A DNA stretch of 64,000 nucleotides from Candidatus Giovannonibacteria bacterium (GCA_023266875.1 JAHFOJ010000001.1:12851-76850); one strand, 5' to 3'; positions 13,140 to 37,244 are shown, counted from the first letter of the stretch. The notes: generated by a model not told the origin, from the letters alone. Numbers and translations are program-made.

Positions 13140-13152
13140 ATTGATTTATATT

Positions 13153-13368
13153 CTACATTAACCACTGCACGCGTCCAACCGTGCCGTCGGTCAGTCTAAC
13201 TTTAATACCTCGCGGGTGCGAAACACCGGGACTTAATACTTCCTTCACGATCCCCTGCTTATAATTAGTCGTGCCATAATTTTCTTTCTCGATAATCCAA
13301 ACCGCGCTCCCAGGTTTAATTTGTGAGCGAGCCGGCGGATTCGGATTATCGTGTTTATCTTGCATCAT
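13153..13368 (-). CDS. YwbE-like small protein (DUF2196 family)
   Basis: 71 aa. ...GIVKEVLSPGVSHPRGIKVRLTDGTVGRVQ resembles Bacillus YwbE. Assignment is from memory of the family. Confidence 0.5.
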   Translation of the reverse strand: MMQDKHDNPNPPARSQIKPGSAVWIIEKENYGTTNYKQGIVKEVLSPGVSHPRGIKVRLTDGTVGRVQWLM

Positions 13369-19969: not shown

Positions 19970-22282
19970 CTATTTTGGCAAAGCGCGCCCTATAGTTTGA
20001 AGAAAATTTTCGGCCTCAATACGGCGCGATGGGTCAAGCTCAAAAACTCGCAGCGCGGCGCGGTAAGCTCCATCTTTATCCCCAGACATAGCTTGGAGAG
20101 CGGCGAATTTTGTATAAACATTTGTAATAGCACTCACATCAAAACCTTTATTTTGACTGTATTCCGCCTCCGCTCTATCAATAAGTATTTTATAAAAATT
20201 GCTTGCTTTATTGTATTTTTTTACTTTAGTGTACGCTTCGACTATATCTTCTATATCATTATCCGAAGTATGCCAACCAGCTTCAGCGGGAATATTCTCG
20301 CGGGGCCAGGAATTCTTACTAAGCCAATCAATTTCTCTAGAAGCTATATCATCGCGTCCGGATAATATCGCGAATGTTGCAAGGTGGCGATGCGCAAGCG
20401 GGAATCTGGGATCGAGAGAAATCGCAGATTCAAGAACTTTAAACGCTTCGTCCATTTTATTTTGATCAATTAGGGCTTGGGACAAGTCAAAATAGATTTG
20501 TTGGCGCTTTGGAGACAGAAAAAGCGCACGCCTCGCGGCAATTTCAGCCGTGGCGGCATACTCAGGATTTAATTTATCCCCTAAAATATAAAGATTTTCC
20601 AAATAGACAAGCCAGCGGGCATTCTCCTGCTCATATGATACATTCCGGCTGATTAGCCGGAGCGCCGTATTAAAATATCTTTTTTCCATTGCAGGCGCGA
20701 GCTTTGAACCGCCGCGCTTTAAATTAAAAACAAGCTCCGCAAAAAATCTCGTGAGCTCCGCATCCATGTAAGCAGGCTCGAGCATAGTTTTTTCATATGC
20801 GTCAATCGCAGAAGCATCATCCGAATTAGCGTATATATTGCTTAGCGCTTCATATGATTTAGCGTTTTTGCCAAGCTGCGCCGCATTTCCCTTCAAAATC
20901 AAAACCAGCGTGGCTAGAGTACCGAGAATAACAATCATAACTTTCAAAAACTCTGGCTTAAAGCCAGCATTTGATAAGGAATTGTTTATGATATGCTGTG
21001 CCACTTCATTATTAGTTCTTGAAACATACGCTAAAACCATCACGATAAATATCAAGACGGTAGCGTTATCAAAAACGAAAGTGTCATTTATTAGATAAGC
21101 AAATCCAAAAGATGTCATAATCGCCTTATCGGTGTAACTCCAAGAATTATTTCTCGCCCAGACATTTCGAAAAATTATCCATAACAAAACAGAAAATAAA
21201 AGGAGGCCCGCGATTCCGAGACTCGAAGTTAAATCCAAAAAGATATTATGAGCGCGGTCGAACCACGGCTCCTGGGCAAAAAGCGCTGGATCATAATATT
21301 TATTAAAAAGAATAATAAAGTTTTCAGGTCCCCAACCGAAAATAGGCCGCTCTTTGATGCCGTTTAAAGCGACGCGCCAGCTTAAAAGTCGCCCCTCAGT
21401 CGTCCGGTCGGAAAGCGAGATACTTGCAATACGCTGAACCGGTGAGAAATTGGCTTTTGCGAGACTGTCTCTAAAAAACCAAACAGATAAAAGCGAGACC
21501 GCGACCAAAACGATAAACGCTGCGCCAATTATTTTCATTTTACGCCGACTAAAAACCCAATATGAAAAATCATGCCGAGAAAAAACAAAAAATAGGGCGA
21601 GAGTGGTTAGCCCGATAGCAATGCCAAGAATCGCGCCGCGTGTTGCCGTCAAAAAAATAACTAAACCGTCGAAAAATGCCGCCGATGCGTAAAAAGCGCT
21701 CTTGAGGCCAAACTTTTTTTCTCTTCCCAAGAGATAAAGCGCAATAAAAAATTGAATCAAGAGAAATGAAGCAAGAAAGGCGGCATTGCCCATGGTTGAC
21801 TCAACCCTGCCGATATTCGTCAAAGTCATTTTTTGCCATACTCCATAGAGAGAAGCCCCAAGGCTTACTAAGATTGAAATATTGAAGTAACGAGCCCAAT
21901 CTTTTTCGTCCCTCATGATTGAAATTAAAATCAAAAAATATAGCCAAAGATGCGCGTATGTAAGAAGCCCCATCATGCGCTCATAATCAGACCAGAAACT
22001 AGCGTGAAATGACTTGCCAAAGTACGCTGAGACAATGCCGCATCCGAGCAATAAAGTCGCAACCCAAAAAACAGAATTAAGTCTGGGACGATATTTTTTG
22101 TAAAATAAGATTAAAGGCAGATAAAAGATAAAAGCAATTTCCAGCAATATTCTGAAATAAAAAGTTTTCGCGCTTGTATAAGGGAAAAACAATCTGCCAG
22201 AAAAAATAAGCGGTGTAGTTAAAATAGCCGCGAGTATTATCACGACCGACCAATATAATATTTTCTCTTTTGGGAACATCAA
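19970..22282 (-). CDS. O-antigen ligase/polymerase-like (Wzy_C) membrane protein with a C-terminal TPR domain
   Basis: 770 aa. About 10-12 TM helices. Large periplasmic loop motif ...GWGPENF...WFDRAHNIFLD. C-terminal roughly 300 aa are TPR-like repeats. Confidence 0.7.
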   Translation of the reverse strand: MMFPKEKILYWSVVIILAAILTTPLIFSGRLFFPYTSAKTFYFRILLEIAFIFYLPLILFYKKYRPRLNSVFWVATLLLGCGIVSAYFGKSFHASFWSDYERMMGLLTYAHLWLYFLILISIMRDEKDWARYFNISILVSLGASLYGVWQKMTLTNIGRVESTMGNAAFLASFLLIQFFIALYLLGREKKFGLKSAFYASAAFFDGLVIFLTATRGAILGIAIGLTTLALFFVFSRHDFSYWVFSRRKMKIIGAAFIVLVAVSLLSVWFFRDSLAKANFSPVQRIASISLSDRTTEGRLLSWRVALNGIKERPIFGWGPENFIILFNKYYDPALFAQEPWFDRAHNIFLDLTSSLGIAGLLLFSVLLWIIFRNVWARNNSWSYTDKAIMTSFGFAYLINDTFVFDNATVLIFIVMVLAYVSRTNNEVAQHIINNSLSNAGFKPEFLKVMIVILGTLATLVLILKGNAAQLGKNAKSYEALSNIYANSDDASAIDAYEKTMLEPAYMDAELTRFFAELVFNLKRGGSKLAPAMEKRYFNTALRLISRNVSYEQENARWLVYLENLYILGDKLNPEYAATAEIAARRALFLSPKRQQIYFDLSQALIDQNKMDEAFKVLESAISLDPRFPLAHRHLATFAILSGRDDIASREIDWLSKNSWPRENIPAEAGWHTSDNDIEDIVEAYTKVKKYNKASNFYKILIDRAEAEYSQNKGFDVSAITNVYTKFAALQAMSGDKDGAYRAALRVFELDPSRRIEAENFLQTIGRALPK

Positions 22283-24514
22283 CTATTTTTTGCCCCTCGC
22301 ATCTTCTATACTCGCTTCAAATTTTGAAACTTCATCCTTTAAACTGTGGTCAAGCGCCAGCGCCTCATGGGCAAAATCCAAAGCTTTATCATAACTTCCC
22401 GAATCGGCGTAAATTTCAGCGAGGGAAAGAGTCGAACTTACACTCTTAGAAGCCCGATATGATGTCTCGTAAAGAAAGGTGGCGATTGCTGGCAATTTTC
22501 TACTAAGCGCGAGTTTGCCTATGGTTTCAATTTCATCATTTTGAATAGCTACGCCCAATTCGTTGATATTAATCAGAGATTTTCTAACCCCCTGTTCGTC
22601 TCCCATAAAAACATACGCCATCATAATAGTTTTCCAAAATGCCCATGACTTGGCCTTATAGCGCTCCAAATCCGCTAAAATCGACGAAGCATTTTCTTTA
22701 TCGCCTCTTGCCAAATAGAGCTCGATTAAACCGATTTTCACCGGAACATAATCAGGTGCCAAAGATACAGCATTTTTATATTCATCTAAAGCTTCTTTGT
22801 AACCATTGCCGGTAAGTGAATAATACTGCTCAAGCAGGCGCGCGAGAAAAATATGATGCTTAGGGCTAAAATGCGCCGCTACTTCCTTCTTCATTTCGCT
22901 AATTGTTAAATTCATGAGCTCTAAAATTTCCTCGGGTTTTAGAGAAGTTTTTGTGGTCACAACTGTATTTGTAAGATTGGTCAATTGCTCCCGCCCTTCA
23001 CGCTGGCCGAACGTGCCCTCACTAAGAACTGACTTGAATTTGCCTAAGACATCGGAAAAATTCACGCCCTCGGAAGTCGTGCTCATGGTATTAATCAAAT
23101 TATAAGCCACGCTTATCGGCTTCGCGTTAATCCAGACCGCTAAAACCAGACCAAAAATAATAGCCGTCGCCGGCGCAATAATTTCCTTTGTGCTGTTGCC
23201 TATTTTCACTCTTAAAGAACTTAGTGTTCCAGTATTCTCTCTCGAAGCCACATAGCCTAAAAACGAAATAAAAATGAGATGCGAGGTGATATTGTCAAAA
23301 ACAAATAGATTTTGAATAAGATACGACACCACAAGCCCTATAGCCAAGATCCCTTCGTTTTTAGTCAACTTTCCCGCTCTCCAAAGTTTTACGAGAGTCC
23401 AAAAAATAATCGCGAATAATGCGAGATACGCTAGCCCTCCGAGAATTCCAGCGGAGACAAACCAATCCAGAACCACATTATGAGTCCGGTCAAACCACGG
23501 CTCGTTTCCAAAAAGGCTCGGAATGTAATGCTCGGCGTAAGGAATCTGAAAATTTTCAAGACCCCATCCAAGAAGCGGCCTATCTTTGACCGCAGAAAGG
23601 CCAATCTTCCAAATCATTACCCGTGAAACCGCGGTCGGCTCCGAAAAAGAAATCGAAGCCAGAGTTGAAATTCCCGGAATATTTTTAGCGATAAGAACGT
23701 CATGGTATTTATAAATCATAAATGCAGAAAAAAGAGATACGGCTATAAGAATTCCAGCCGCAATTTTTATCTTCTTGGATTTATTAAACAGGATGAAGAG
23801 TAAAAGCATTATCAAAAAGCCAGCCCCAAATCCGACTAAAGCGCCGCGCGTTTGGGAAAATAACAGAACAATGGTATCAAGGATAAAAGCTACACCAAGA
23901 ATAATTTTAAGCCAGAGCTTCTTTGACTTAAGAAGTGCCCAGCAAATGAAAAATAGATGAAACAATAGATAAATCGCAAGATATATCGAATTGCCTAAAG
24001 TGGAAAAAATTCTCCCGCCGCCTGTTAAACTTGAAATCGCGCCAGTCTTTTCAAGCAAGCCGTAAAAACTAACAATTACACTTGTCGCGAGAGAGACAAA
24101 AAATAAGACAGTCCAATCCCGATCCTTTTTCATGACAGACGAAAGAACCAAAAACAGAAGGAATAAATGCAAATAAGTTATAAGCCCTTCCATCCGCTCA
24201 AAATTGGACCAGAAACTTCGGTATGGATCAGCGCTAAATACAGTTGAAAGCGATGCAATTGCTATTAAAGCAAATAGCGCCCAAAAAATCATGGTGCGCC
24301 GCGGACGATATTCCTGATTCAAAATAGCGACACTTATCCAAAGGGCGCCAATTATTTCAACTACAATTCTGAAAATAAAATTCTTCCCGCTTATAAATGG
24401 AAAATAAAGCGAAGATGAAATAACAAGAGCAATTAAAGGCAAAATAAAAATTCCTCCTTTAATTATCAGGAGAAAAACCCTCTCAAGCGTCCAAGCATCC
24501 GGTCTTGATGACAT
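22283..24514 (-). CDS. O-antigen ligase-like (Wzy_C) membrane protein with C-terminal TPR domain; tandem paralog of 19970..22282
   Basis: 743 aa with the same architecture. Motif GWGLENF...WFDRTHNVVLD. Start abuts the stop of the downstream paralog. Confidence 0.7.
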   Translation of the reverse strand: MSSRPDAWTLERVFLLIIKGGIFILPLIALVISSSLYFPFISGKNFIFRIVVEIIGALWISVAILNQEYRPRRTMIFWALFALIAIASLSTVFSADPYRSFWSNFERMEGLITYLHLFLLFLVLSSVMKKDRDWTVLFFVSLATSVIVSFYGLLEKTGAISSLTGGGRIFSTLGNSIYLAIYLLFHLFFICWALLKSKKLWLKIILGVAFILDTIVLLFSQTRGALVGFGAGFLIMLLLFILFNKSKKIKIAAGILIAVSLFSAFMIYKYHDVLIAKNIPGISTLASISFSEPTAVSRVMIWKIGLSAVKDRPLLGWGLENFQIPYAEHYIPSLFGNEPWFDRTHNVVLDWFVSAGILGGLAYLALFAIIFWTLVKLWRAGKLTKNEGILAIGLVVSYLIQNLFVFDNITSHLIFISFLGYVASRENTGTLSSLRVKIGNSTKEIIAPATAIIFGLVLAVWINAKPISVAYNLINTMSTTSEGVNFSDVLGKFKSVLSEGTFGQREGREQLTNLTNTVVTTKTSLKPEEILELMNLTISEMKKEVAAHFSPKHHIFLARLLEQYYSLTGNGYKEALDEYKNAVSLAPDYVPVKIGLIELYLARGDKENASSILADLERYKAKSWAFWKTIMMAYVFMGDEQGVRKSLININELGVAIQNDEIETIGKLALSRKLPAIATFLYETSYRASKSVSSTLSLAEIYADSGSYDKALDFAHEALALDHSLKDEVSKFEASIEDARGKK

Positions 24515-25400: not shown

Positions 25401-26723
25401 ATGACAATGCATAAGTTCGTGGTAAATTATCGCAAAGAGTTAATAATTTTTTTTATTGCGCTTGCGGCACGGTTATTTTTTTTCGCTTTCTTCTACCCAG
25501 CATTTGGCCACGATAATTTTATCAAAGGTGATGCCATCGAATATTTGAATATTGCCCAGAATATTTGGCAAACCGGCACTTTCTCAAATCTGACGCCGCC
25601 TTCAAGCGTGCCCACAATTTCAGACGGACCGCTCTACCCACTTTTTTTGCTATTAACCGGCTCTCGATTTCATTTTATGTTTCCGCTAATATTCCAGCTT
25701 TTCATAGGTGCACTGACAGCTGTGCTAGTCTATAAGTTAAGCATGCGCGCAGGCCTCAAAAAGAGCGCTTGGCTGGCCTCATCTTTTTTTGTCCTCGAAC
25801 CGGGAATCCTTTTTTTTACATCTCAAATTTTTACGGAAACCTTGTTTCTATTCTTTTTTCTTTTAGGCCTTTATTATATTTCGGATTCGGAACTGCGGAC
25901 AAAACACGTAGCCCTTGCCGCGTTTTTTTTGGCCCTTGCCACACTCGCCCGATCGATTGCGCTTTATTCCTCGTTCGTTTTGTTGATATACATCATCGTA
26001 GTGTCTCTCTTTAAAAAAGAGGCATTACGCCCCATTGTCTTTAAAACTTTCGCATTCGCCGGAATTTTCCTTATAATCATTTCCCCATGGGTCGTAAGAA
26101 ACAAAAAATCATTCAATATCTATACCATAAGTTCAGGAGAGGAAATCTCCCTTGCCGCATATGCAATCCCAGCATATTTTTCATGGCATGACCGCATAGG
26201 ATTTCACGATGCCCAAATTAAAGTACAAACAGATTACGCCGCGCGCGGCATCTATGAAGATTTCGACCGCGGAACAAATTTCAACATTAGAAAAGAATTT
26301 CTGAAAATAGTCTCCTCTGATCCAGCCGGATACATCTGGAGCCAAATCCGTTTTTCCCCTGAGTTCTTTATTTCAAGCGGATGGCAAAGCATCGTGGACG
26401 CATTCCAAAAAAAGAGATTAGAAGTTCCACGTTTCGGCGAAATGCCAGCGCCATCGGCCGCACGGATCTTAGGTTCTGGCTTTTGGCTTGTTCTTACGCT
26501 TCTTGCGCTTGCGGGGATCCTGCGCACTCTAAATGCAGAAAAGAATAATCGCATTCTCTACATTTTATTCGCGCTAATTATTTTTGAATTCGCCTTCCTG
26601 ACAGGCTCATTAGCCCACTCACGCTATCGCTTCCCGGTAAATCCAATTATATTTCTATTCGCCGCTAACGCTATCTATGAAATAAAAACACTATTTCCAG
26701 GCAAGGAGCAAAATGCCGCTTAA
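25401..26723 (+). CDS. GT-C fold membrane glycosyltransferase (ArnT/PMT-like, GT39/83-type)
   Basis: 440 aa. Multi-TM. N-terminal periplasmic-loop motif (F..GHDNFIKGDAIEYLNIAQNI) typical of ArnT/PMT2-family enzymes. Confidence 0.6.
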   Translation: MTMHKFVVNYRKELIIFFIALAARLFFFAFFYPAFGHDNFIKGDAIEYLNIAQNIWQTGTFSNLTPPSSVPTISDGPLYPLFLLLTGSRFHFMFPLIFQLFIGALTAVLVYKLSMRAGLKKSAWLASSFFVLEPGILFFTSQIFTETLFLFFFLLGLYYISDSELRTKHVALAAFFLALATLARSIALYSSFVLLIYIIVVSLFKKEALRPIVFKTFAFAGIFLIIISPWVVRNKKSFNIYTISSGEEISLAAYAIPAYFSWHDRIGFHDAQIKVQTDYAARGIYEDFDRGTNFNIRKEFLKIVSSDPAGYIWSQIRFSPEFFISSGWQSIVDAFQKKRLEVPRFGEMPAPSAARILGSGFWLVLTLLALAGILRTLNAEKNNRILYILFALIIFEFAFLTGSLAHSRYRFPVNPIIFLFAANAIYEIKTLFPGKEQNAA

Positions 26724-27050
26724 GATAAGAAAAGTCGCGGCAGCCTTTATGATGGTTATCTCTTCTCCAAAAATAAAGTGCGATAATAATATCACCAAAA
26801 TAAGCACGCTTGCAGTTACGAATGGGAATGCAAAACTAACATCAGTTCGGGAGTTAATAAAAAACCAGAGCGCAAACGCCAGGCCATACACAATAAGTGT
26901 TATCCAAACATAGCCGTTCTTTAGCAATAAAAAAATAAAATCTATGACGTTTGCAAATTGGTACCCCGTGAATTTTGAAGCCCCCTTTTTAAGCAATATC
27001 TGCCCAAGCGTTAAGAGCCCAGCCATCAAAAAAAGAAGCGAATAAATCAT
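26691..27050 (-). CDS. Small 4-TM EamA/SMR-like protein (ArnE/ArnF-like undecaprenyl-P-sugar flippase subunit)
   Basis: 119 aa. Four predicted TM helices. Sits beside GT-C and GT2 genes, as arnE/arnF do. Confidence 0.5.
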   Translation of the reverse strand: MIYSLLFLMAGLLTLGQILLKKGASKFTGYQFANVIDFIFLLLKNGYVWITLIVYGLAFALWFFINSRTDVSFAFPFVTASVLILVILLSHFIFGEEITIIKAAATFLILSGILLLAWK

Positions 27051-28506: not shown

Positions 28507-30939
28507 ATGAATAGATTATTGCTAGACATTGTGCTAGACTTTCGGGATATAATGAATCGAAAAACTTGCTATAAAATCGCCGCAGTCATTATTGTCGGAG
28601 CAAGCCTGACCGCGTTCGCATATTATAGCTTGAACGCCAAAGATCAGTTAATCCGCTCCCCCTTTTACCAGTATTTTCTGCACACATTCCGTTCATTTAG
28701 AAAACTGGCGGACATACCATATCTTATCTATAAACCGATCCCAGATAATCTTCCGGTCTATGAACTTGCGCTTTCGACAAAAGATATAGCAGAACTTGAC
28801 CGCGCGCTTCCGCAAGATCCGATAAAAGGGCGCCTGACCGATGAATACAAAACTGAAGTTAAGGCGTATTTCCGGTCTGGAGATTATTTGGAGCAAGTTA
28901 AGGTAAGATATCGCGGCTGGGAACCAAACCACTGGAACGCGATGAAAAAATCATATTTTATTAAATTTTCCAGCGAAGCGCCTTTCAACGGCTACAAAGA
29001 AATTTCATTTATAATCCCTGAAGATAGATCTTACGGCGCTGAAGCTCTTAATATATATCGCGCTCAAAAACTTGGACTCTTCGCACCTAAAATATGGTTT
29101 GCGCATATAAAGCTAAATGGGCAAGACATGGGAGTTTACCTTGCCATCCCGCATTGGTATAGAAATCTTCTTGAAACAAATAAAATACAGGACGCTTCCA
29201 ATATTTTCGTAACTAAAGACCTTTCTCTCCAAGATCAGAAACAGGTAGATTTTTTTGATCCAAAAAATATAGATTTATGGAAAGACGCGGTAAGCAACAC
29301 TGACACAAATCCACAGGGAGCGGCGGAGCTTAAAAATTTCCTTGAGCTTTTATATAACGCCCCTGAAGCGATTCTTGAGAAAACAGCCCCAATAGCGATT
29401 AATATGGATGACTTTTATTCTTGGATGATTTTAAACTCTCTCACTTCCTCCAGCCACCAAAACAAAAATAATAATAGCATTTTCTTAAGAAACTCTATAG
29501 ATAATAAATTCTCGCCAATCCCTTGGGATGTTGGCATATTTAAGCCCGGCCCTGTCAGGCTTGATTTAAATATTCTCGCCGGGCGGATATTATCTATACC
29601 AGTTTTTCGAGATGAATATCTAAAACGGCTCAGCGGATATGTTTCAAACCCAGGCAACTTGAGAGATGATTTGGCTTATTATGACAAAATAACAGCTGAA
29701 ATAAAAATTCCGCTTTATAAGGATCTAGCTAAATTGCCCCTAAATTATCAAGTCGGGAAAGATATTTCTAAATATCGAAAAATGATTGAACAAAACTTTA
29801 ATTATGTAAAAGACACTCTGGTCTCCGGTAATACAAATGAATTATTTCAAGGATCAGCCCAAGTTAACATAAATCCAGACTATAAATTACCTCCATTTTA
29901 TGAAGCGGCATCCGCGGCTTTAGCAACATTTCTCGCTCTGCATCCGCAATTTTATCCCCAAGACGAAGACACGGTTGCAATCGGGCCAGGCAGTTACACA
30001 ATTTCAGAAGATGTAGTGGTGCCAGCAAAATATTCGCTTGACATCAAACCCGGAACGACACTTTTTATTAACGGGGGGGCTTCCATCATTTCTTGGAACA
30101 AGCTTACGGCTCAAGGCAAGCCTGATGCGCTCATTACTATTAAAAAAGCCAATGAAAAACCTTGGGGGAATATTTTGATAATAGGGGCACCGAACGAGAC
30201 GAGCATTTTAAAATTCGTGAATATATCCGGCGGATCAGGATTCCACAAATACGGCATAACTCAAACCGGCATGCTGGCGTTCGCCGCCAAAGGTCAAAAC
30301 GTGGTTGTTAAAAATAGTTCTTTTAATAATTCTTATGACGATGATGAGTTAAATATTAAATATGGGAATGTCTTGATCGAAAATAATACTTTCAATGATT
30401 CATATTCTGATGCGATCGATCTTGACGTATCCACCGGCATCGTTCGAGGAAATACATTCACTGAGCTTGGCTTCCGGCAAACCGATAAGCCGCCGATCTT
30501 GGACGGCGATGGAATAGATATTAGTTTTTCAAAAATTGAAATCTCCTATAATGTAGTTTTGAACTGTGCCGATAAGGGACTATCTCTCGGCGAGGTCTCT
30601 GAACCAACGGCGCACGATAATTTTATCTACGATTGTAATTTTGGCGCTGCGGTCAAAGACCGCTCGCAAGCGCACATGGATCGTAATTACTTCATTGCAA
30701 ATCGCACGAGCGGAGTCGATATCAAGGAGAAAAAATCGCTCTATGGACCAGGCCAAGCGTGGGTAACCAACTCGCTGTTTTGGAAAAACAAACAAGATAT
30801 CTCGATTGAAAATAATTCCAATCTCGCCGAAAGCACAAATAATATTCTGGGCATCATTCCTTCTTCAACTCTAGATTTTAAAATAATTCTTCCTCCAGAA
30901 TTTTATAGAATATTTGAAACGCTGAATATTTCAAAATGA
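28507..30939 (+). CDS. Membrane-anchored CotH-family atypical kinase fused to a C-terminal right-handed parallel beta-helix domain
   Basis: 810 aa. N-terminal signal-anchor helix. CotH-like core (...LNIYRAQKLGLFAPKIWFAHIKLNGQDMGVYLAIPHW...DDFYSWMILNS...PIPWDVGIF). C-terminus has repeated NxxxxN/beta-helix rungs (VVKNSSFNNS, VLIENNTFNDS, IVRGNTFTE...). Confidence 0.65.
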   Translation: MNRLLLDIVLDFRDIMNRKTCYKIAAVIIVGASLTAFAYYSLNAKDQLIRSPFYQYFLHTFRSFRKLADIPYLIYKPIPDNLPVYELALSTKDIAELDRALPQDPIKGRLTDEYKTEVKAYFRSGDYLEQVKVRYRGWEPNHWNAMKKSYFIKFSSEAPFNGYKEISFIIPEDRSYGAEALNIYRAQKLGLFAPKIWFAHIKLNGQDMGVYLAIPHWYRNLLETNKIQDASNIFVTKDLSLQDQKQVDFFDPKNIDLWKDAVSNTDTNPQGAAELKNFLELLYNAPEAILEKTAPIAINMDDFYSWMILNSLTSSSHQNKNNNSIFLRNSIDNKFSPIPWDVGIFKPGPVRLDLNILAGRILSIPVFRDEYLKRLSGYVSNPGNLRDDLAYYDKITAEIKIPLYKDLAKLPLNYQVGKDISKYRKMIEQNFNYVKDTLVSGNTNELFQGSAQVNINPDYKLPPFYEAASAALATFLALHPQFYPQDEDTVAIGPGSYTISEDVVVPAKYSLDIKPGTTLFINGGASIISWNKLTAQGKPDALITIKKANEKPWGNILIIGAPNETSILKFVNISGGSGFHKYGITQTGMLAFAAKGQNVVVKNSSFNNSYDDDELNIKYGNVLIENNTFNDSYSDAIDLDVSTGIVRGNTFTELGFRQTDKPPILDGDGIDISFSKIEISYNVVLNCADKGLSLGEVSEPTAHDNFIYDCNFGAAVKDRSQAHMDRNYFIANRTSGVDIKEKKSLYGPGQAWVTNSLFWKNKQDISIENNSNLAESTNNILGIIPSSTLDFKIILPPEFYRIFETLNISK

Positions 30940-31676
30940 TAAATACATTCTATCGTTTCGAATTTAAATATCATATCTCGCGTCAACTTGCCCTCATTTT
31001 AGAAAGCGAGCTTAAACATTTTGGGATGAAGCCTGACGCATATGCCCAAAAAACCGAAACGAAATCATACATAGTAAACAGTCTTTATTTTGATTCGCTT
31101 TTGATGGACGATTATTTTGACAAAACCGGAGGATTTTTGGAGAGAAAGAAAATTAGAGCAAGAATTTATGAACCGTTTATCAAAGACTCAACCGTTGTCT
31201 GGCTTGAGATGAAAATGAAACACGATATCGCTGTTCGGAAAGAACGCGTTTCGCTGACACTCCCAGAGTGGTCGCTTCTACAAAAAAGCGAAAATTATTC
31301 AAAAGTCGCTGGACTCAAAGATCCGGAAGAAAGGAGAGTATTTGAAAATATCGCTTTCAGAATTATTGGAGACAATATGCGCCCGCAGGCTGTTATACGG
31401 TACGAACGAAAACCTTTGGTTTACAGGCACGTCGAAGAAGTGAGAGTAACGTTCGACTGGAATTTGGAAACTTGCCGAGCTGATAATTTAGGCTATAATC
31501 CAGTTTATTCGCTCTTTCTGCCGCGCGACCAAGTTATTATGGAATTAAAATTTCAAACCCTGTTGCCCATATGGCTCCGAGATATAATTGGAAAATTCGG
31601 CCTGCGGCGTGATGCTTTTTCTAAGTATGGATATGGCCTTGAAGAGCTTAACCGCTATATTTCAATCCCGCGCTAA
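30936..31676 (+). CDS. VTC-domain protein (CYTH-like triphosphate-tunnel / polyphosphate-polymerase-like), soluble
   Basis: 246 aa. N-terminal YRFEFKY (the R.E.KY tunnel motif), with further K/R/E-rich strands. 4-nt overlap with the CotH gene. Confidence 0.6.
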   Translation: MINTFYRFEFKYHISRQLALILESELKHFGMKPDAYAQKTETKSYIVNSLYFDSLLMDDYFDKTGGFLERKKIRARIYEPFIKDSTVVWLEMKMKHDIAVRKERVSLTLPEWSLLQKSENYSKVAGLKDPEERRVFENIAFRIIGDNMRPQAVIRYERKPLVYRHVEEVRVTFDWNLETCRADNLGYNPVYSLFLPRDQVIMELKFQTLLPIWLRDIIGKFGLRRDAFSKYGYGLEELNRYISIPR

Positions 31677-31823
31677 AGCGTCGATTGATGAAAAATAATG
31701 ATAAAAAATGATAATCCAAATATATATTTCAGCTGTTGTAAAAAGTGGTGCGGGATATTCAATTGTTTAGATAAAATATTTATTGTAAACTTAATTTATT
31801 AACGTAATTTTATAAAAATTGGC

Positions 31824-32495
31824 ATGTCAAACTTTTTCAATCTCACAAGCACAGAATTATCGGCAACGGTAATAATTTTTAATTTATTCCTAGCGCTTAC
31901 TTTGGAACTAGTGATCGCCTGGGTATATAGGAAAACCCACCACGGTATTGCCTACTCGCAATCATTTCTCATGACGATTGTCATCATGGGGATCATGGTT
32001 TCCGTTGTAATGATGGTCGTAACCAATAATATCGTCGGTGCGTTTGCGCTCCTTGGAGCGTTCTCGCTAATCCGCTTCCGAACCATCATGAAAGAAACGC
32101 GTGACATCGCGTTTCTGTTTTCAGCGCTTGCCATTGGTGTCGCAGTAGGAACATCAAACTATTCCATCGCCATAATTGTTACGGTTTTTGTTGGCGCGCT
32201 TATCCTGATTTTAGAACGGCTAAATTTTGGATCTCTCGTACGGCGCGGCTATATTCTCACATTCCTTGCAGGTCGTGGGCACAACGAAACCAACCTCGAC
32301 AAAGTCTTCATAGAGTTCCTATCAGAATCACGTATTCTGCACGTTAAAGGTTTTAAAGAAGGAGAACGAGAATTTGCATACTTAATTAAACCAAAAGACG
32401 AAATGCAAATCTCAGAATTTATAAATCGCCTTGAGGCCCTGCCCGATCTTTCAGCCCCGTCCATCATCACCGGGCACGAAACCTCGGAGTATTAA
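31824..32495 (+). CDS. DUF4956 membrane protein
   Basis: 223 aa. Three or four N-terminal TM helices containing the conserved LLGAFSLIRFRT segment. Soluble C-terminal about 90 aa. Confidence 0.6.
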   Translation: MSNFFNLTSTELSATVIIFNLFLALTLELVIAWVYRKTHHGIAYSQSFLMTIVIMGIMVSVVMMVVTNNIVGAFALLGAFSLIRFRTIMKETRDIAFLFSALAIGVAVGTSNYSIAIIVTVFVGALILILERLNFGSLVRRGYILTFLAGRGHNETNLDKVFIEFLSESRILHVKGFKEGEREFAYLIKPKDEMQISEFINRLEALPDLSAPSIITGHETSEY

Positions 32496-32497
32496 TT

Positions 32498-34171
32498 TTA
32501 ATTTGCAAGATCTTTCCTCAAAAGGATCTTGCTTGATCCTATTTGATTAACTTCCCTGTAATTATTGCTTACAAATTCTCGTATCGGCGGCTGAAATTTA
32601 AAGACAAAATCGGTCATGCGCTTATCAATCACAACATAACGCGGCGGGCGCGAAATTAGCTCTTTGAGAACCTCGGCTGGAGAAGGATAGGAAAAAAATT
32701 GCTCTTCAAAAGATGGGGCAAATTTGAAACCGAAAGGTGAAACGTCTTCAAACACTCCGCGACCCGCAAGCACAACTGGCAATCGATTTGCCGTAAATAT
32801 ATCTTCACCAGGAGCACTATTTTTTTCGATAAAGGATTCGAGAGTCCTCATTTCTGATTGTGTCCAATACCACCCCTCCCCTTTTGGATTTAAAAACCAT
32901 GCGCCCCCTGATATCCAGAAACTAAGTACCCCGAAAATAAATAAGACTTTCATAAAAAGGGAGAGGTCCCGAAAAGGAAACTGGGAAAAAGCAATTCCAG
33001 ACATGATCGCAACTATTGGAATGAATTCCCGAATATAGCCTGGATCCCAAATAGTGTAAGCTATAATTAAAATCAAAAACCAAACGAGGAGAAAAAGTGG
33101 TAAATGAGTAAGGTGCTCTAAAAACTTAAAGTTGTCACTAAAAATAAACTGTAAAAAAGAAATAATGATCAGAAGAGCAGAAATCATCATTAACAAAAAT
33201 ACCTCAGGTCGAAAGTTGGGCGCCACAAACCAGATATGCAAAGAATGAAATACAAGCGCGCCGTAAACAATTATTAATAGTGCGCTGATAATCCATCTCT
33301 CAAAATATTTAAAATAGCGCTTAATAAGAAGGATAAAAAAGAGAATCATTCCTGAAAATAGAAGCCAGCCCTCAAGCGCCAGCCCCTCAATAAAAGCAAG
33401 CCCCCATGTTCGGATCTGAAGGTAAAAGGAGGTACGCGCATGCGTAACATTTTGGCGCCACGCATTTCCATTGAAAATCTGCCAAATTAAGCCTAACCAA
33501 TATTCCCCAGCTGCTACTGCATTATGAGAGAAAATCCAAAGAAATATGGGCAAAAACCCGACCCCCATACCTGCCCAAAAAATTAGAACTTCCATGAGTA
33601 TATATCTCCCCCAAATTAGATATATTGTGAAGGCAAGCATCGCTGCAAGTGCCGACTGGCGTTCCAGATATGCTAAACCTAAACTTATCCCTGCAAAAAA
33701 AATCAAGAACCTACGATGACGGGTTATTCCATAATGAAGGGATAAAAGAGCTAAAAGTGTAAACATAATAGAAAAGGATTCAATTTTAATAATACTCTCG
33801 CGCCATAAGACAAAGGGTGAAAGCACATAAAATGCCGCCGCATACCACCCCGCGCGCTCAGAGCAAAAAGCTCGTGCTAAAAGAAAAATAAGAACTGCAA
33901 TCAAAGCAGAAGCAAGTAATACAGGAAGTCGTGCAGCAAAAAGATTACGTCCAAAAAACATAAGCGACAAATCGGTCAATATAATCAAAATAGGTGCGCG
34001 GGCAGAATAATCAGCGACAGGCACTAATCCTTGCCCAAACAAAATTGCCTGATGAATTCGGATGCCCTCATCCCCCGCTATCCTTACTAGCGGGAATACT
34101 AAAACGTGCAGCAGAATACTAAATGTAAAAATAAATATAATTTTCGATGAATTTTTCTTAAAATAGTCCAT
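32498..34171 (-). CDS. GT-C fold membrane glycosyltransferase (ArnT/PMT-like)
   Basis: 557 aa. More than 10 TM helices. N-terminal periplasmic loop with D-E motif (RIAGDEGIRIHQAILFGQG). Confidence 0.6.
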   Translation of the reverse strand: MDYFKKNSSKIIFIFTFSILLHVLVFPLVRIAGDEGIRIHQAILFGQGLVPVADYSARAPILIILTDLSLMFFGRNLFAARLPVLLASALIAVLIFLLARAFCSERAGWYAAAFYVLSPFVLWRESIIKIESFSIMFTLLALLSLHYGITRHRRFLIFFAGISLGLAYLERQSALAAMLAFTIYLIWGRYILMEVLIFWAGMGVGFLPIFLWIFSHNAVAAGEYWLGLIWQIFNGNAWRQNVTHARTSFYLQIRTWGLAFIEGLALEGWLLFSGMILFFILLIKRYFKYFERWIISALLIIVYGALVFHSLHIWFVAPNFRPEVFLLMMISALLIIISFLQFIFSDNFKFLEHLTHLPLFLLVWFLILIIAYTIWDPGYIREFIPIVAIMSGIAFSQFPFRDLSLFMKVLFIFGVLSFWISGGAWFLNPKGEGWYWTQSEMRTLESFIEKNSAPGEDIFTANRLPVVLAGRGVFEDVSPFGFKFAPSFEEQFFSYPSPAEVLKELISRPPRYVVIDKRMTDFVFKFQPPIREFVSNNYREVNQIGSSKILLRKDLAN

Positions 34172-34272: not shown

Positions 34273-35925
34273 TTATTTTATGTGAAATTGGCGTTTAATA
34301 ACCGTCATTCCCTCTACTTTACTATACGATTCAGTTACGTCAAGCAAATTAGAATTTAGCTCTCTTCCTAAAAAGTAATGAGAACTTGGTATAAATATAT
34401 ACGAAGCTTTAACTCCACAATATATTTTTTCTCGCGAAAGGTTTGACCCTATACGATCTTCCACATCGATTCCATCTGCGCATAAAGTTATCTTTCTTCT
34501 AAAAGGGACTGATGAGACATCGTGCCCAACAATAAGTTTTTTTCGTGCATATTGCTTTAAAAGCCTTTGTAATAATGGAATGCGCCCAAAAGTGAAGCCA
34601 AAAAGGCGAGAGAGAATAAATGAAGCACTAGAAAAAACATATTCTCTAATGGAGTGCAGTAATCCTTCAGATGAAACATATTCTGGCATAGAAGTGATAT
34701 GATTTTTTTGATCGAGAACGCCGGAAATAAGTTTCTGGCCGTTATACACAACACCTATTCCTGAATCGAAATAAACCTTTCCTTTTGCGTATAGCCGGAA
34801 AGAGCCCCCCTTATACAGGTTAATAATAAAATAATAAGTACTATTTTGAACAATTCGAATACCGCTTGATGAGAAGAAAATATCTATACGACGGAATTGA
34901 AAATATGAGAAAATATCTGGCATATTTTTTATTTCTGAAAAAGAAATGCCTGCGTAAAGCCAATTGTAAAGAATATAGCAAAGATAACGGTCATCGAGCT
35001 TTTCTGGAGATATCCCTAACTTGCAGACAAGCGCCTCCTGCATAAAACTACTAATAACTAAGGCGTTTTGATCAAATCGAGCGAACATTACAAAACCGGA
35101 AGGGATGAGATATTCTGTATTGCGCGATGCATATTCTCCTCCCACCGTCAGATCGGGATGCAAAAAATTAATGATAAACGCTGAAGCTTTTTTGATACTT
35201 TCTCTAATTTCTGGACGATTCGTTTTAAGATAGCATTTTACAAGGTAATCAATTGTGAGGGATAAATAGCCTATGTCTGGGCCGCCATATTCATTCCACC
35301 AGCCTTCAGAGCGCTGAAGCGACAGAAAACGAGTTAGCATAGACTCAAATAACATTTCATATTTTTTGTCGCCTGTCAGTACGCCTAGATTGTACATTGC
35401 TAAAAGCGCTCCTGCAAATTGGTTTTGTACTAATAATTCCTCTCGGCCTGAAAGTAAATCAGCGCTTCTGGCAAGCATTGCCACGTGACTCCTGAAATTA
35501 TTTATCTTTGTAGCTCCTAAAATAAGAAGTGATTCGGAAAGCGCTGCGGTAACAAAAGCCGTTGAGACAAACGACCCCTCATGAGGATACCACTCATCAA
35601 ATGACCCATCCGCACGCTGAATAGTATGCGTAAAAGCGAAGGCTGCATTTATCCAATCCAAGAGAAGCTGATCGGCGAAGTAACGATTTCCTTCAAAATC
35701 AGTACTCCAAAGGAGACTCAAAGTTAGAATAGCTTCTTGGAAACGGGAGGAATTCATATCAGAAGAATGATAATGCCAAAAGGCACGATCAAACGAGCCA
35801 TAGGTTCGGGATAAAACATTCCGATCCAGCTGACCTAGTAAGCGCGGAATATTTTCGAGCACAGATTCAAAAAAAATATTTGATTTTATCTGTGACATGT
35901 AATTACGGCGACTGAACCAAGCCAA
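34273..35925 (-). CDS. Large soluble protein, possibly heparinase II/III-like (alpha/alpha toroid plus beta-sandwich)
   Basis: 550 aa, Trp/aromatic-rich (FWHYHSSD, DEWYPHEGSFVSTAFVTAAL). Assignment is tentative. Confidence 0.35.
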   Translation of the reverse strand: MAWFSRRNYMSQIKSNIFFESVLENIPRLLGQLDRNVLSRTYGSFDRAFWHYHSSDMNSSRFQEAILTLSLLWSTDFEGNRYFADQLLLDWINAAFAFTHTIQRADGSFDEWYPHEGSFVSTAFVTAALSESLLILGATKINNFRSHVAMLARSADLLSGREELLVQNQFAGALLAMYNLGVLTGDKKYEMLFESMLTRFLSLQRSEGWWNEYGGPDIGYLSLTIDYLVKCYLKTNRPEIRESIKKASAFIINFLHPDLTVGGEYASRNTEYLIPSGFVMFARFDQNALVISSFMQEALVCKLGISPEKLDDRYLCYILYNWLYAGISFSEIKNMPDIFSYFQFRRIDIFFSSSGIRIVQNSTYYFIINLYKGGSFRLYAKGKVYFDSGIGVVYNGQKLISGVLDQKNHITSMPEYVSSEGLLHSIREYVFSSASFILSRLFGFTFGRIPLLQRLLKQYARKKLIVGHDVSSVPFRRKITLCADGIDVEDRIGSNLSREKIYCGVKASYIFIPSSHYFLGRELNSNLLDVTESYSKVEGMTVIKRQFHIK

Positions 35926-37244
35926 CCAACCCTGCGCAATCCTTGCGCGCGCATCAATCCCGCAAGCATACGACTTATCACATCATCCCTGCGGTCGCGG
36001 TGTAAATAGCTAGAGCCTTCCGAACGAATATACTGTACTAACATTTGATATGCCTGCTCATAGAATGGTGGGAGAAAAAAATATCCCGACCATTGGATGT
36101 TTTTGAAACCGAGTTTTTTTAGTTCGCGTGTAATAAACGAGAGCCGCAGAGGCTTATAGGGGCCAAAAAAACTATAAATGCCAGTTTTGCGTAAATCTTT
36201 ACCAAAGAGCCCCTTAATTATAAAGAAAAAGAAGAAGAGAAATAGATTTGATTTGCGTGAAATAATGACCAACTTACCTCCATCGTCAAGCGCGGCATGA
36301 GCTCTTGCAAGAAATTCACACTTGAGAACGTCCGAAATACGTTCGAGTTTAAATATAAATGTGGCGGTTTTTGGCCTCGGTTCAGCCAACAGAGGCCTTA
36401 CTTCATTGTAAACCTGATGAGTGAATTGGGAAGTATTAAGATGATTTAATTCTAATGCTGCTGCCGTATAACGTGATGTTTCTGTCGTCAAATCGATTGA
36501 AATAATTTTCACCTCCCGAGGAAATTCCCGTAAATAACTGCCGTCATAACTTAAAAAATCAAAAATAGGGCCGGATACTTCCTTTAATTTTTCGCGAATT
36601 ATTTTTCGTTCAGAGTCACTTATAATATCCATCTCCTTGCCTAAAAATGTCTTGCGACAATAATATTTCTGGTGGTTCTTGAGATCATCAAGAGTCCAAT
36701 CGTTGGGATTATAAGTAAAAGGAGGCCTTCTTCTGAGCTTAAATCGTCCCCAATGAATTGTCTCGTTTACTGGGCGACGAGATACAACTGGCTGACTCTC
36801 GGCTCGCTCGTCCGGATAGCCTATTGTTACAAAGCAACAAATAACTTCTGAATCTGGAATCTCTAAAATTTTTTTAATCTTCCTATCCGCTCCATAACTA
36901 TTCATCGCCATAGCAGAGAGACCATAATAATGCGCAGCAAGCAAAATATGCCCTACAGCAAGACTAGCTCCTTGCATCGCCTCTTTATAGTTCCACCCAT
37001 CAAACGTCACAATAAGAATTGTAGGCACACGGCGAAGCATTGTATTGGAAGCTGCCTCATTGATTAATTGCTCTTTCGTTTCAGCATCCTCAATGACAAT
37101 AAAATTCCAAAGCTGCAAGTTGCAATTGGTGGGGGCGTACGTAGCAAGTGTTAAAATTTTCTCGAGGGTCTCATGATCAATCGGTTTAGGGAGAAAACTG
37201 CGAGCACTTTTTCGCGTCTCGAGAACTTCGAGAAAAGATTTCAT
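35886..37244 (-). CDS. Fusion protein: N-terminal nitroreductase-family domain plus C-terminal class I methyltransferase-like domain
   Basis: 452 aa. Residues 1-150 are nitroreductase fold (RKSARSFLPKPI...ATYAPTNCNLQLWNFIVIED). C-terminal half is methyltransferase-like (...LARAHAALDDGGKLVIISRK). Overlaps the upstream gene by 40 nt. Confidence 0.5.
   Translation of the reverse strand: MKSFLEVLETRKSARSFLPKPIDHETLEKILTLATYAPTNCNLQLWNFIVIEDAETKEQLINEAASNTMLRRVPTILIVTFDGWNYKEAMQGASLAVGHILLAAHYYGLSAMAMNSYGADRKIKKILEIPDSEVICCFVTIGYPDERAESQPVVSRRPVNETIHWGRFKLRRRPPFTYNPNDWTLDDLKNHQKYYCRKTFLGKEMDIISDSERKIIREKLKEVSGPIFDFLSYDGSYLREFPREVKIISIDLTTETSRYTAAALELNHLNTSQFTHQVYNEVRPLLAEPRPKTATFIFKLERISDVLKCEFLARAHAALDDGGKLVIISRKSNLFLFFFFFIIKGLFGKDLRKTGIYSFFGPYKPLRLSFITRELKKLGFKNIQWSGYFFLPPFYEQAYQMLVQYIRSEGSSYLHRDRRDDVISRMLAGLMRAQGLRRVGWLGSVAVITCHR

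What the first reader, a model, noticed from the sequence alone, without database searches (positions are those of the whole stretch)
28507..32495. CotH kinase / VTC domain / DUF4956 triad inside a glycan locus: possible split bacterial VTC-like polyphosphate polymerase-channel feeding an extracytoplasmic kinase
Three consecutive same-strand genes encode three things. The first is a membrane-anchored CotH-family atypical protein kinase predicted to face outward. The second is a soluble VTC/CYTH triphosphate-tunnel protein (YRFEFKY motif). This is the catalytic fold of the eukaryotic Vtc4 polyphosphate polymerase. The third is DUF4956, a membrane protein with 3-4 TM helices plus a soluble tail. 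In yeast, VTC couples polyP synthesis to translocation through its own TM domain. Here the catalytic domain and a membrane protein are separate genes. An exported CotH kinase has no ATP outside the cell. The hypothesis is that VTC plus DUF4956 make and export polyP (or a nucleotide) as phosphoryl donor for CotH. The target could be surface protein or glycan phosphorylation. The conserved co-occurrence of these three families is something I recall from Firmicutes genomes, and no function is assigned to it.
Basis: partly seen in the sequence, partly recalled or inferred. Interest (0 to 1): 0.8.

Follow-up and report, generated by a model that had tools for sequence, protein, structure and literature searches.

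The report
CotH–VTC–DUF4956 envelope phosphate module
Inside a surface-sugar gene cluster of an ultra-small (CPR) bacterium sit three genes found together across many phyla: an outward-facing kinase-like protein, a polyphosphate-polymerase-like enzyme and its membrane partner. They may deliver phosphate chemistry to the cell surface, but no function has been shown.

Summary
Three same-strand ORFs at the stated coordinates encode a CotH protein carrying a right-handed beta-helix, a full-length VTC domain protein, and a DUF4956 protein.

VTC and DUF4956 form a near-obligate gene pair: adjacent in 78 of 80 genome loci, with the two exceptions cut by contig ends, and in 54 of 56 in the reciprocal scan. 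CotH lies within 10 kb in 59 of 80 loci.

The VTC protein keeps all nine catalytic residues of yeast Vtc4, including the Lys that separates active Vtc4 from inactive Vtc2/3.

The interpretation needs three corrections:
- DUF4956 is not a Vtc1-type channel subunit. It is MgtC-like: a multi-pass membrane region plus a cytoplasmic ACT-like domain.
- This CotH lacks the canonical catalytic Asp. An invariant His replaces it, which defines a large subclass.
- The triad is already published as accessory genes of Gram-positive Pel loci and C. perfringens NELoc-2, with no function shown.

The topology fits an extracytoplasmic CotH. Its beta-helix resembles polysaccharide epimerases and lyases, which points to a glycan target. 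Polyphosphate export, and polyphosphate as the phosphoryl donor, remain untested inference.

The parts
28507..30939 (+). Gene 1: membrane-anchored CotH-like protein with a C-terminal right-handed beta-helix (810 aa)
   Evidence: ORF; Pfam CotH + Beta_helix; AlphaFold2 model with pLDDT 86.4, pTM 0.84; Foldseek match to B. cereus CotH 5jda/5jd9, E=2e-16, TM 0.81-0.82
28564..28620 (+). Signal-anchor or signal-peptide helix of CotH (residues 20-38), preceded by R18 and K19
   Evidence: Hydropathy; the same layout in all 12 homologs; helix 18-40 in the model
28756..29826 (+). CotH kinase-like domain (about residues 84-440)
   Evidence: Pfam, PDB phmmer hit to 5jd9 at E=1.4e-8, Foldseek
29455..29475 (+). 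Catalytic-loop equivalent H317-Q-N-K-N-N-N323: His in place of the canonical catalytic Asp, with the Asn retained
   Evidence: Alignments to B. cereus CotH; H317 and N323 invariant in A3; no Asp or Glu between residues 305 and 331
29521..29529 (+). P339-W340-D341, equivalent to the metal-binding 'PWD' Asp (B. subtilis D251)
29944..30831 (+). Right-handed parallel beta-helix (about residues 480-775) carrying a ladder of near-invariant Asp/Lys residues
   Evidence: Pfam Beta_helix/NosD; secondary structure of the model; Foldseek to AlgG, PL6 lyases, AlgE, polygalacturonase, tailspikes; conserved residues
30936..31676 (+). Gene 2: soluble VTC-domain (Vtc4-type triphosphate-tunnel) protein, 246 aa, start overlapping the stop of gene 1
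   Evidence: Pfam VTC E=2.2e-32; profile versus Vtc4, E=1e-22, aligned end to end; K11, R74, R76, K93, Y156, R158, E203, S229, K230 correspond to Vtc4 K200, R264, R266, K281, Y359, R361, E426, S457, K458, each conserved in 166-169 of 169 sequences
31824..32495 (+). Gene 3: DUF4956 membrane protein (223 aa), MgtC-like architecture
   Evidence: Pfam DUF4956; weak MgtC hits in 29 of 31 homologs; AlphaFold2 model with pLDDT 79
31863..32222 (+). Multi-pass membrane region of DUF4956 (about residues 14-133; five predicted helices)
   Evidence: Hydropathy and model helices. Lys/Arg are concentrated in loops 36-47 and 84-94 and after the last helix, with none in the other loops, so N-terminus out and C-terminus in (my reading of the sequence printed)
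32070..32105 (+). Invariant basic hairpin I83-R84-F85-R86-T87..K90..T92..D94 at the predicted cytoplasmic face
   Evidence: Invariant columns of A2; residues verified
32250..32483 (+). C-terminal ACT/ferredoxin-like domain of DUF4956 (about residues 143-220), predicted cytoplasmic

Best explanation
A conserved three-gene envelope module. Shown or strongly supported: gene 2 encodes a cytoplasmic enzyme with the complete catalytic residue set of the Vtc4 polyphosphate polymerase. It is genetically locked to gene 3, an MgtC-like multi-pass membrane protein with a cytoplasmic ACT-like domain. Gene 1 encodes a protein with a Sec-type signal anchor whose bulk (a CotH-like phosphotransferase fold plus a polysaccharide-enzyme-like beta-helix) lies outside the membrane, within a locus that builds surface glycan. 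Inferred: the VTC protein docks on DUF4956 at the inner face of the membrane and polymerises the gamma-phosphate of ATP into polyphosphate. An oligomer of DUF4956, possibly together with the CotH anchor helix, passes the chain outward. The external CotH/beta-helix protein then uses it to phosphorylate, or attach phosphate chains to, the glycan made by the locus. In this His-class CotH the His would act either as the general base or as a phospho-enzyme intermediate. My rough step probabilities: VTC and DUF4956 act as one unit, 0.95; VTC makes polyphosphate, 0.65; the product crosses the membrane through this module, 0.4; CotH uses it as donor, 0.25-0.3.
For: VTC-DUF4956 adjacency in 78 of 80 loci and 54 of 56 in the reciprocal test. 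CotH directly adjacent in 53 of 80 loci across CPR, Chloroflexota, Myxococcota, Planctomycetota, Nitrospirota, Actinomycetota, the Deinococcus-Thermus group and Verrucomicrobiota. ATGA translational coupling between CotH and VTC. All nine Vtc4 catalytic residues conserved, including the K458 equivalent that Vtc2/3 lack. No membrane segment in any VTC homolog, and a signal-anchor layout in 12 of 12 CotH homologs. Positive-inside distribution places the DUF4956 ACT-like domain and its invariant RFRT..K..D hairpin in the cytoplasm, where VTC is. CotH is fused to extracellular or glycan-binding modules everywhere: a beta-helix here, and LTD, Fn3_assoc, CHB_HEX_C and dockerin domains in L052 and L074. 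The cassette keeps its order while flanking glycan genes change. The same triad lies in other exopolysaccharide loci (PMC7112168, PMC11677781).
Against: No homology or fold similarity between DUF4956 and the VTC channel subunits. Its relative MgtC is known, as far as I recall, as a regulator rather than a transporter. The canonical catalytic Asp of CotH is absent, so phosphotransfer is not assured. Twelve Bacillales genomes carry the pair with no CotH within 10 kb, so the pair does not depend on CotH. No VTC-DUF4956 or VTC-CotH fusion appears among the 150 best VTC relatives. The authors of the S. intermedius preprint suggest the polyphosphate stays in the cytoplasm. No biochemical data on any bacterial VTC-domain protein turned up in my literature searches.
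Confidence: 0.4

Rival explanations
1. Exported polyphosphate is itself the product: an anionic surface or matrix polymer. The CotH/beta-helix protein is then not a kinase fed by it but a catalytically altered (His-class) or pseudokinase module that binds, caps or covalently anchors the chain to a glycan, perhaps a de-N-acetylated, cationic one.
For: Loss of the catalytic Asp in 50 CotH domains in this set. A ladder of near-invariant Asp/Lys residues along the beta-helix groove. Recurrent proximity of polysaccharide deacetylases: two in this window, in Pel loci, and in NELoc-2. Some bacteria are reported to accumulate extracellular polyphosphate (abstracts listed).
Against: The Lys, Asn and PWD-Asp of the nucleotide/metal site are retained under selection, which argues for catalysis. 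An Asp-class CotH sits in the same triad in other phyla. Deacetylases are not seen in the other CPR contexts examined.
Confidence: 0.2
2. VTC-DUF4956 makes polyphosphate that stays inside the cell, as a membrane-associated phosphate or energy store or a homeostasis device gated by the ACT-like domain. CotH obtains its donor elsewhere. The linkage reflects co-regulation within envelope loci, not substrate channelling.
For: DUF4956 resembles MgtC rather than any known channel. The pair occurs without CotH in Bacillales. The S. intermedius preprint proposes cytoplasmic retention.
Against: Direct adjacency with start/stop overlap to an exported protein in most phyla is hard to explain by co-regulation alone. 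The obligate membrane partner mirrors the eukaryotic logic of coupling synthesis to a membrane. In Bacillales the neighbour is again a membrane permease, of the AI-2E family.
Confidence: 0.2
3. The VTC-domain protein is not a polymerase. Like many triphosphate-tunnel enzymes it acts as a phosphohydrolase or cyclase (on tripolyphosphate, a nucleotide or polyphosphate), and its product or substrate is sensed by the ACT-like domain of DUF4956 to regulate envelope glycan modification.
For: The bacterial family keeps an E9-x-K11 pair in the first strand (163 and 164 of 169 sequences, the rest being gaps or one Asp). This recalls the ExExK signature of CYTH hydrolases (my recollection), whereas Vtc4 has T-T-K there. 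ACT domains are typical small-ligand sensors.
Against: Pfam assigns VTC at E=2e-32 with no CYTH hit at E<=0.01. The K458-equivalent Lys, which specifically marks the polymerising subunit, is invariant.
Confidence: 0.1
4. The arrangement is a chance juxtaposition or an annotation artefact.
For: None found.
Against: All domains score above Pfam gathering thresholds. Same order and strand in dozens of unrelated genomes.
Confidence: 0.01

Closest known systems
Eukaryotic VTC complex (Vtc4 catalytic subunit with the Vtc1/2/3 membrane channel; PDB 7ytj, 8i6v)
   Same: The catalytic tunnel domain is homologous (profile E=1e-22) with all nine catalytic residues retained. The enzyme is tied to a membrane protein.
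   Different: No SPX domain. No DUF202-type three-helix membrane domain: 0 of 31 DUF4956 members hit it, and no VTC-complex chain appears among the fold matches. The catalytic and membrane parts are separate genes. The partner is MgtC-like. The target compartment would be the cell exterior, not a vacuole.
Bacillus CotH spore-coat Ser/Thr kinase (PDB 5jd9/5jda)
   Same: Same fold (TM 0.81-0.82). The Lys-Lys-Ser strand, the catalytic-loop Asn and the PWD Asp are retained.
   Different: The catalytic Asp (D228) is replaced by an invariant His. The protein has an N-terminal signal anchor and a fused polysaccharide-enzyme-like beta-helix. The host is not known to sporulate, and the gene sits in a glycan locus.
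cotH / polyphosphate polymerase / DUF4956 (with or without DUF4832) accessory genes of Gram-positive Pel loci, and C. perfringens NELoc-2
   Same: The same three families are contiguous within exopolysaccharide loci that also carry glycosyltransferases and deacetylases. Function is unknown there too.
   Different: The streptococcal CotH carries an FN3 domain and is reported to keep its catalytic residues. Here the protein has a beta-helix and a His-class loop. No Pel-specific gene was recognised among the 30 window ORFs scanned. The host is a CPR bacterium.
MgtC/SapB/YhiD family
   Different: The window protein scores 14.2 bits against a 31.4-bit gathering cut-off. It belongs to a separate Pfam family and is obligately paired with VTC, which MgtC is not known to be (my recollection).
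Secretory-pathway kinases such as Fam20B/Fam20C (analogy from general knowledge only)
   Same: Atypical kinase folds acting outside the cytosol, some on glycans, which need a donor supplied across a membrane.
   Different: No homology was tested here. Those enzymes use ATP imported into the Golgi lumen.

Membership tests
Vtc4-type polyphosphate polymerase catalytic domain (Pfam VTC) | Full-length match to the VTC profile above the gathering score | tested here: met
   112.9 bits against a 23-bit cut-off, profile positions 2-233 of 235
Vtc4-type polyphosphate polymerase catalytic domain (Pfam VTC) | Catalytic residues K200, R264, R266, K281, Y359, R361, E426, S457 and K458 (K458 is absent in inactive Vtc2/3) | tested here: met
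   K11, R74, R76, K93, Y156, R158, E203, S229, K230, by alignment to Vtc4. Each is conserved in 166-169 of 169 sequences; K11 in all 164 non-gap rows. Residue list from bioRxiv 10.1101/2023.01.27.525886
Vtc4-type polyphosphate polymerase catalytic domain (Pfam VTC) | Closed beta-barrel tunnel fold | not tested
Vtc4-type polyphosphate polymerase catalytic domain (Pfam VTC) | Synthesis of polyphosphate from ATP | not testable with these tools
   Needs an enzyme assay
Eukaryotic VTC complex | SPX regulatory domain and DUF202-type membrane domain forming the channel | tested here: not met
   The VTC protein is a single domain of 246 aa. DUF4956 gives no DUF202 hit, and no VTC-complex chain appears among the fold matches
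CotH kinase family (Pfam CotH) | Profile match above gathering score, and the CotH fold | tested here: met
   67 bits against a 23.8-bit cut-off; Foldseek to 5jda, E=2.2e-16, TM 0.81
CotH kinase family (Pfam CotH) | Catalytic Asp (B. subtilis D228; D228Q is inactive) | tested here: not met
   H317 occupies this position, with no acidic residue between 305 and 331. The D228Q result is taken from PMC7821199
CotH kinase family (Pfam CotH) | Metal-binding Asp (D251, 'PWD') and catalytic-loop Asn | tested here: met
   D341 and N323
CotH kinase family (Pfam CotH) | Protein Ser/Thr kinase activity with ATP | not testable with these tools
   Needs an enzyme assay
DUF4956 (Pfam PF16316) | Profile match above the gathering score | tested here: met
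   56.3 bits against a 30.6-bit cut-off; 31 of 31 homologs match
MgtC/SapB/YhiD family | Pfam MgtC match above the gathering score | tested here: not met
   14.2 bits against a 31.4-bit cut-off for the window protein; 29 of 31 homologs match weakly, best E=4.5e-6
MgtC/SapB/YhiD family | C-terminal ACT-like cytoplasmic domain after the membrane region | tested here: met
Pel-locus accessory module (cotH, polyphosphate polymerase, DUF4956) | The three families contiguous on one strand | tested here: met
   literature description
Pel-locus accessory module (cotH, polyphosphate polymerase, DUF4956) | Contiguity with a pelDEADAFG operon | tested here: not met
   No Pel-specific family among 30 ORFs scanned between 13.4 and 51.3 kb. 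Generic GT1, deacetylase and flippase families are present, so a very divergent Pel-like system is not strictly excluded
Right-handed parallel beta-helix (CASH-type) carbohydrate-acting domains | Beta_helix profile match and fold similarity to polysaccharide lyases or epimerases | tested here: met
   PF13229 at 58.2 bits; AlgG 4ozy at E=1.7e-4, plus PL6 lyases, AlgE and polygalacturonase

The most novel reading that the evidence does not exclude
Bacteria possess a split analogue of the eukaryotic VTC machine. A Vtc4-type polymerase docked on an MgtC-like membrane protein threads polyphosphate out of the cell. There a His-class CotH phosphotransferase, aimed by a glycan-binding beta-helix, uses it as the extracytoplasmic phosphoryl currency to phosphorylate or polyphosphorylate surface polysaccharide. 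That would be both the first dedicated bacterial polyphosphate exporter and the first polyphosphate-driven extracellular kinase.
Probability: 0.2. Interest if true: 0.9.

Novelty: new variant of a known kind. Interest (0 to 1): 0.6.

Why it matters
Kinase-like enzymes placed outside the bacterial membrane have no obvious phosphoryl donor. Extracellular polyphosphate is reported for several bacteria (abstracts listed), yet none of my searches found a described export route.

This module is large: 9,667 clusters of VTC relatives at 50% identity. It spans many phyla and sits in exopolysaccharide and biofilm loci of streptococci, bifidobacteria and C. perfringens. It gives both questions a concrete, genetically compact, testable candidate.

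The findings here that sharpen the experiments are:
- The obligate VTC-DUF4956 pairing.
- The MgtC-like nature of the membrane partner.
- The intact Vtc4 active site.
- The His-for-Asp subclass of CotH.
- The beta-helix fusion that points to a glycan substrate.

If the export model is wrong, the module still probably marks an uncharacterised membrane-coupled polyphosphate system in bacteria, including genome-reduced CPR lineages.

Tried and rejected
- **Single-sequence PDB searches.** The VTC protein found nothing. A C-terminal sub-profile (A4) also failed to reach Vtc4. Only the 80-sequence profile A5 aligned Vtc4 end to end.
- **NCBIfam and PADLOC.** Neither returned a hit for any of the three proteins, so there is no curated name and no defence-system link.
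- **First CotH HMM.** Built from CPR sequences only, it was too narrow. It missed CotH in L052 and L074 and was replaced by an iterated HMM.
- **Fusion ('Rosetta stone') evidence.** I looked for VTC-DUF4956 or VTC-CotH fusions. None appears among the 150 best VTC relatives. Long 'VTC' ORFs in high-GC loci are start-codon artefacts of my ORF caller.
- **DUF4956 as a Vtc1-type channel subunit.** Rejected on the evidence.
- **Promoter and terminator scan of the cassette.** Uninformative; promoter-like counts equal the shuffled expectation.
- **AlphaFold database fold search (afdb50).** The library was unavailable.
- **The original CotH kinase paper (PNAS 2016).** Not held in the library, so I could not check whether it already discussed this neighbourhood.
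- **Papers mentioning DUF4956 in S. mutans, B. thetaiotaomicron and B. adolescentis.** They contain only transcriptome table entries or unrelated matches.

Full report
**1. What is there**

The window carries three consecutive plus-strand ORFs exactly at the reported coordinates:
- 28507-30939, 810 aa
- 30936-31676, 246 aa
- 31824-32495, 223 aa

The stop of the first overlaps the start of the second (ATGA). A 147-nt AT-rich gap precedes the third.

Pfam assigns all three above gathering thresholds:
- ORF 1: CotH (E=2.7e-18, residues 133-376) plus a right-handed Beta_helix (E=9.6e-16, residues 595-743).
- ORF 2: VTC (E=2.2e-32, full length).
- ORF 3: DUF4956 (E=4.2e-15).

The YRFEFKY motif is present at VTC residues 6-12. 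NCBIfam and PADLOC have no models for any of the three, and public sources give them no names.

The closest relatives of all three proteins come from Patescibacteria/CPR: Giovannonibacteria, Paceibacterota, Yanofskybacteria and Ryanbacteria. The host is therefore a CPR bacterium, not a Firmicute.

The flanks form a large glycan-assembly locus. It contains a Bac_transf priming transferase, GT2 and GT1 enzymes, two Wzy_C+TPR proteins, a flippase, two polysaccharide deacetylases, two PMT-like GT-C enzymes, a carbamoyltransferase and sugar-modifying enzymes.

**2. Is the association real?**

A genome-collection scan with a VTC alignment returned 80 loci from many phyla.

Using HMMs built here, DUF4956 directly follows VTC in 78 of the 80 loci. 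The two exceptions end within a few hundred bases of VTC.

A broadened, iterated CotH HMM finds CotH in 59 of 80 loci and directly adjacent in 53 of 80. Only three copies lie more than 3 kb from VTC. Pfam confirmed the divergent CotH genes in a Chloroflexota locus and a Nitrospiraceae locus. There CotH is fused to LTD, Fn3_assoc, CHB_HEX_C and dockerin modules.

The reciprocal scan started from DUF4956 in metagenomes:
- VTC is adjacent in 54 of 56 loci with enough upstream sequence. One of the two misses (L102) is an ORF-overlap artefact.
- CotH is present in 34 of 39 loci with at least 3.5 kb upstream.

In CPR relatives the cassette keeps its order while the flanking glycan genes change (NeuB, CMP-sugar synthetases, SDRs, methyltransferases).

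Conclusion: VTC-DUF4956 is a near-obligate pair, and CotH is its usual, though not universal, third partner.

Twelve Bacillales loci lack CotH within 10 kb. In eight of them an AI-2E-family permease follows the pair instead.

**3. The VTC protein**

A profile of 80 diverse bacterial homologs aligns yeast Vtc4 end to end at E=1e-22.

The nine residues reported as essential for polyphosphate synthesis in Vtc4 are K200, R264, R266, K281, Y359, R361, E426, S457 and K458. They correspond to K11, R74, R76, K93, Y156, R158, E203, S229 and K230 here. Each is conserved in 166-169 of 169 sequences. K458 is the residue that inactive Vtc2/3 lack, and its equivalent is invariant.

No homolog has a membrane segment, so the enzyme is cytoplasmic.

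The family is large: 9,667 clusters at 50% identity with E<=1e-3. All of the best 150 are stand-alone proteins of about 130-280 aa, most of them 230-280.

One difference from Vtc4 is a conserved E9-x-K11 pair in the first strand. This recalls CYTH hydrolases and keeps a hydrolase reading alive as a minor rival.

**4. DUF4956**

The AlphaFold2 model (pLDDT 79) and hydropathy indicate five helices in residues 14-133, followed by a beta-alpha-beta-beta-alpha-beta domain.

Lys and Arg are concentrated in loops 36-47 and 84-94 and after the last helix, with none in the other loops (sequence printed). This predicts N-terminus out and C-terminus in. The C-terminal domain and an invariant I-R-F-R-T..K..T.D hairpin therefore face the cytoplasm.

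Of 31 homologs, 29 give weak Pfam MgtC hits and none hits DUF202, the VTC membrane domain.

DUF4956 is therefore an MgtC-like protein, not a detached Vtc1-type channel subunit. A conduit role is possible, for example in an oligomer, but no evidence here speaks for it.

**5. The CotH protein**

All 12 homologs begin with a short basic stretch and one hydrophobic helix. This is the classic Sec signal or signal-anchor layout, so the bulk of the protein is predicted to lie outside the membrane.

The model (pLDDT 86, pTM 0.84) matches B. cereus CotH at TM 0.81-0.82. Its C-terminal beta-helix best matches periplasmic or extracellular polysaccharide enzymes: the AlgG and AlgE epimerases, PL6 lyases, polygalacturonases, tailspikes and RbmB. 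The beta-helix carries a ladder of near-invariant Asp/Lys residues.

The catalytic loop lacks the canonical Asp, which I had not expected. H317 aligns with B. subtilis D228, and D228Q inactivates that enzyme. No acidic residue occurs between positions 305 and 331. The Lys-Lys-Ser strand, N323 and the PWD Asp (D341) are retained.

Across the triad-linked CotH domains in this set:
- 50 are His-class. These are CPR, Peregrinibacteria and Gracilibacteria, mostly with CotH upstream of VTC.
- 13 are Asp-class. These are Glycomyces, Chloroflexota, Nitrospiraceae, the Deinococcus-Thermus group and Verrucomicrobiota, mostly with CotH downstream of VTC.
- 6 have Gln, Glu or Ser at that column; in four of them a His follows one residue later (Myxococcota, Planctomycetota).

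The window protein is thus a member of the CotH fold family, but it fails one defining catalytic feature.

**6. What is already known**

The contiguous set of cotH, a polyphosphate polymerase gene and DUF4956 (with DUF4832 or a DGC/PDE gene) was described as accessory genes of Gram-positive Pel loci (PMC7112168).

A preprint on S. intermedius describes the three proteins. It calls the membrane protein 4-TM plus ACT and proposes that the polyphosphate may remain cytoplasmic.

C. perfringens NELoc-2 carries CotH with two VTC-domain proteins, a glycosyltransferase and a deacetylase.

No functional data were found in any of my searches. The original CotH kinase paper is not in the library.

**7. 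Explanation and rivals**

The best-supported model is a trans-membrane module:
1. A cytoplasmic Vtc4-like polymerase is bound to an MgtC-like membrane partner.
2. It supplies phosphoanhydride chemistry to an external CotH/beta-helix enzyme.
3. That enzyme acts on the locus glycan.

Shown or strongly supported:
- The genetic coupling of the genes.
- The intact Vtc4 active site.
- The sidedness of the three proteins.
- The glycan-enzyme-like targeting domain.

Inferred: polyphosphate synthesis, its export, and donor use by CotH. I put the whole chain at about 0.4.

Rivals:
- Polyphosphate is the exported product, and CotH is an anchor or pseudokinase (0.2).
- Polyphosphate is retained in the cell, and the linkage reflects co-regulation (0.2).
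- The VTC protein is a hydrolase in a signalling role (0.1).
- Chance juxtaposition (0.01 or less).

**8. Verdict**

Its central analogy (DUF4956 as the VTC membrane domain) is not supported. Its 'kinase' lacks the canonical catalytic base. The gene set itself is already published.

- Quantification of the obligate VTC-DUF4956 pair.
- The MgtC-like identity of DUF4956.
- Residue-level proof that the VTC protein has a polymerase-competent active site.
- The His-class CotH subclass.
- The beta-helix fusion, which points to a glycan target.
- The Bacillales variant, where an AI-2E permease takes the place of CotH.

Noticed in passing
L047, L054, L057, L058, L061-L064 (about 11500-13200 in each locus): In 8 of 12 Bacillales loci that lack an adjacent CotH, the gene directly downstream of VTC-DUF4956 on the same strand is an AI-2E-family permease (PF01594). 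The third partner of the pair therefore differs by lineage.
   Followed up: partly
L011, L013, L016, L036, L042, L043, L046, L048, L049, L071 (upstream of VTC): Many CPR and Peregrinibacteria loci carry two or three tandem CotH paralogs, typically one with and one without the beta-helix, all His-class. Whether they work as a pair is unknown.
   Followed up: no
L056:11681-13996; L074:11427-12596; L086:11483-12532: Other lineage-specific neighbours of the pair: a Cthe_2159 carbohydrate-binding protein in an Anaerolineaceae locus that lacks CotH, and HlyD-like membrane-fusion proteins in Nitrospiraceae and Puniceicoccaceae loci.
   Followed up: no
window 30343-30660 (CotH residues 613-718): The beta-helix has a ladder of near-invariant D613, N616, K618, D635, D638, D640, G667-D668, D671, S673, D689-K690-G691, E696 and K717-D718 on successive turns. 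This suggests an active or metal/ligand-binding groove rather than a passive stalk.
   Followed up: no
window 32487-32492 (DUF4956 residues 222-223): The last two residues, Glu-Tyr, are invariant in all 31 aligned homologs although the model is disordered there. This may be a docking motif.
   Followed up: no
window 31677-31823: A 147-nt AT-rich gap separates VTC from DUF4956 here, whereas most other loci have roughly 0-40 nt. The promoter scan gave only chance-level matches.
   Followed up: partly
window 34273-35925 (-): A 550-aa ORF inside the glycan locus has no Pfam match at E<=0.01. It is called as a gene in the public assembly, also with no domain on record.
   Followed up: no
window 35886-37244 (-); L002:1450-2619: A nitroreductase-domain protein with a long uncharacterised C-terminal extension lies near the triad here. 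Another nitroreductase-family gene lies near the triad in an unrelated CPR locus.
   Followed up: no
window 19970-22282 and 22283-24514 (-): Two tandem paralogous Wzy_C (O-antigen ligase/polymerase-like) proteins, each with C-terminal TPR repeats.
   Followed up: no
window 26691-27050 (-) with 25401-26723 (+) and 32498-34171 (-): A small EamA-like four-helix protein sits next to PMT/ArnT-like GT-C enzymes. This suggests lipid-linked sugar flipping and glycosyl transfer on the outer face, the same compartment predicted for the CotH domain.
   Followed up: no
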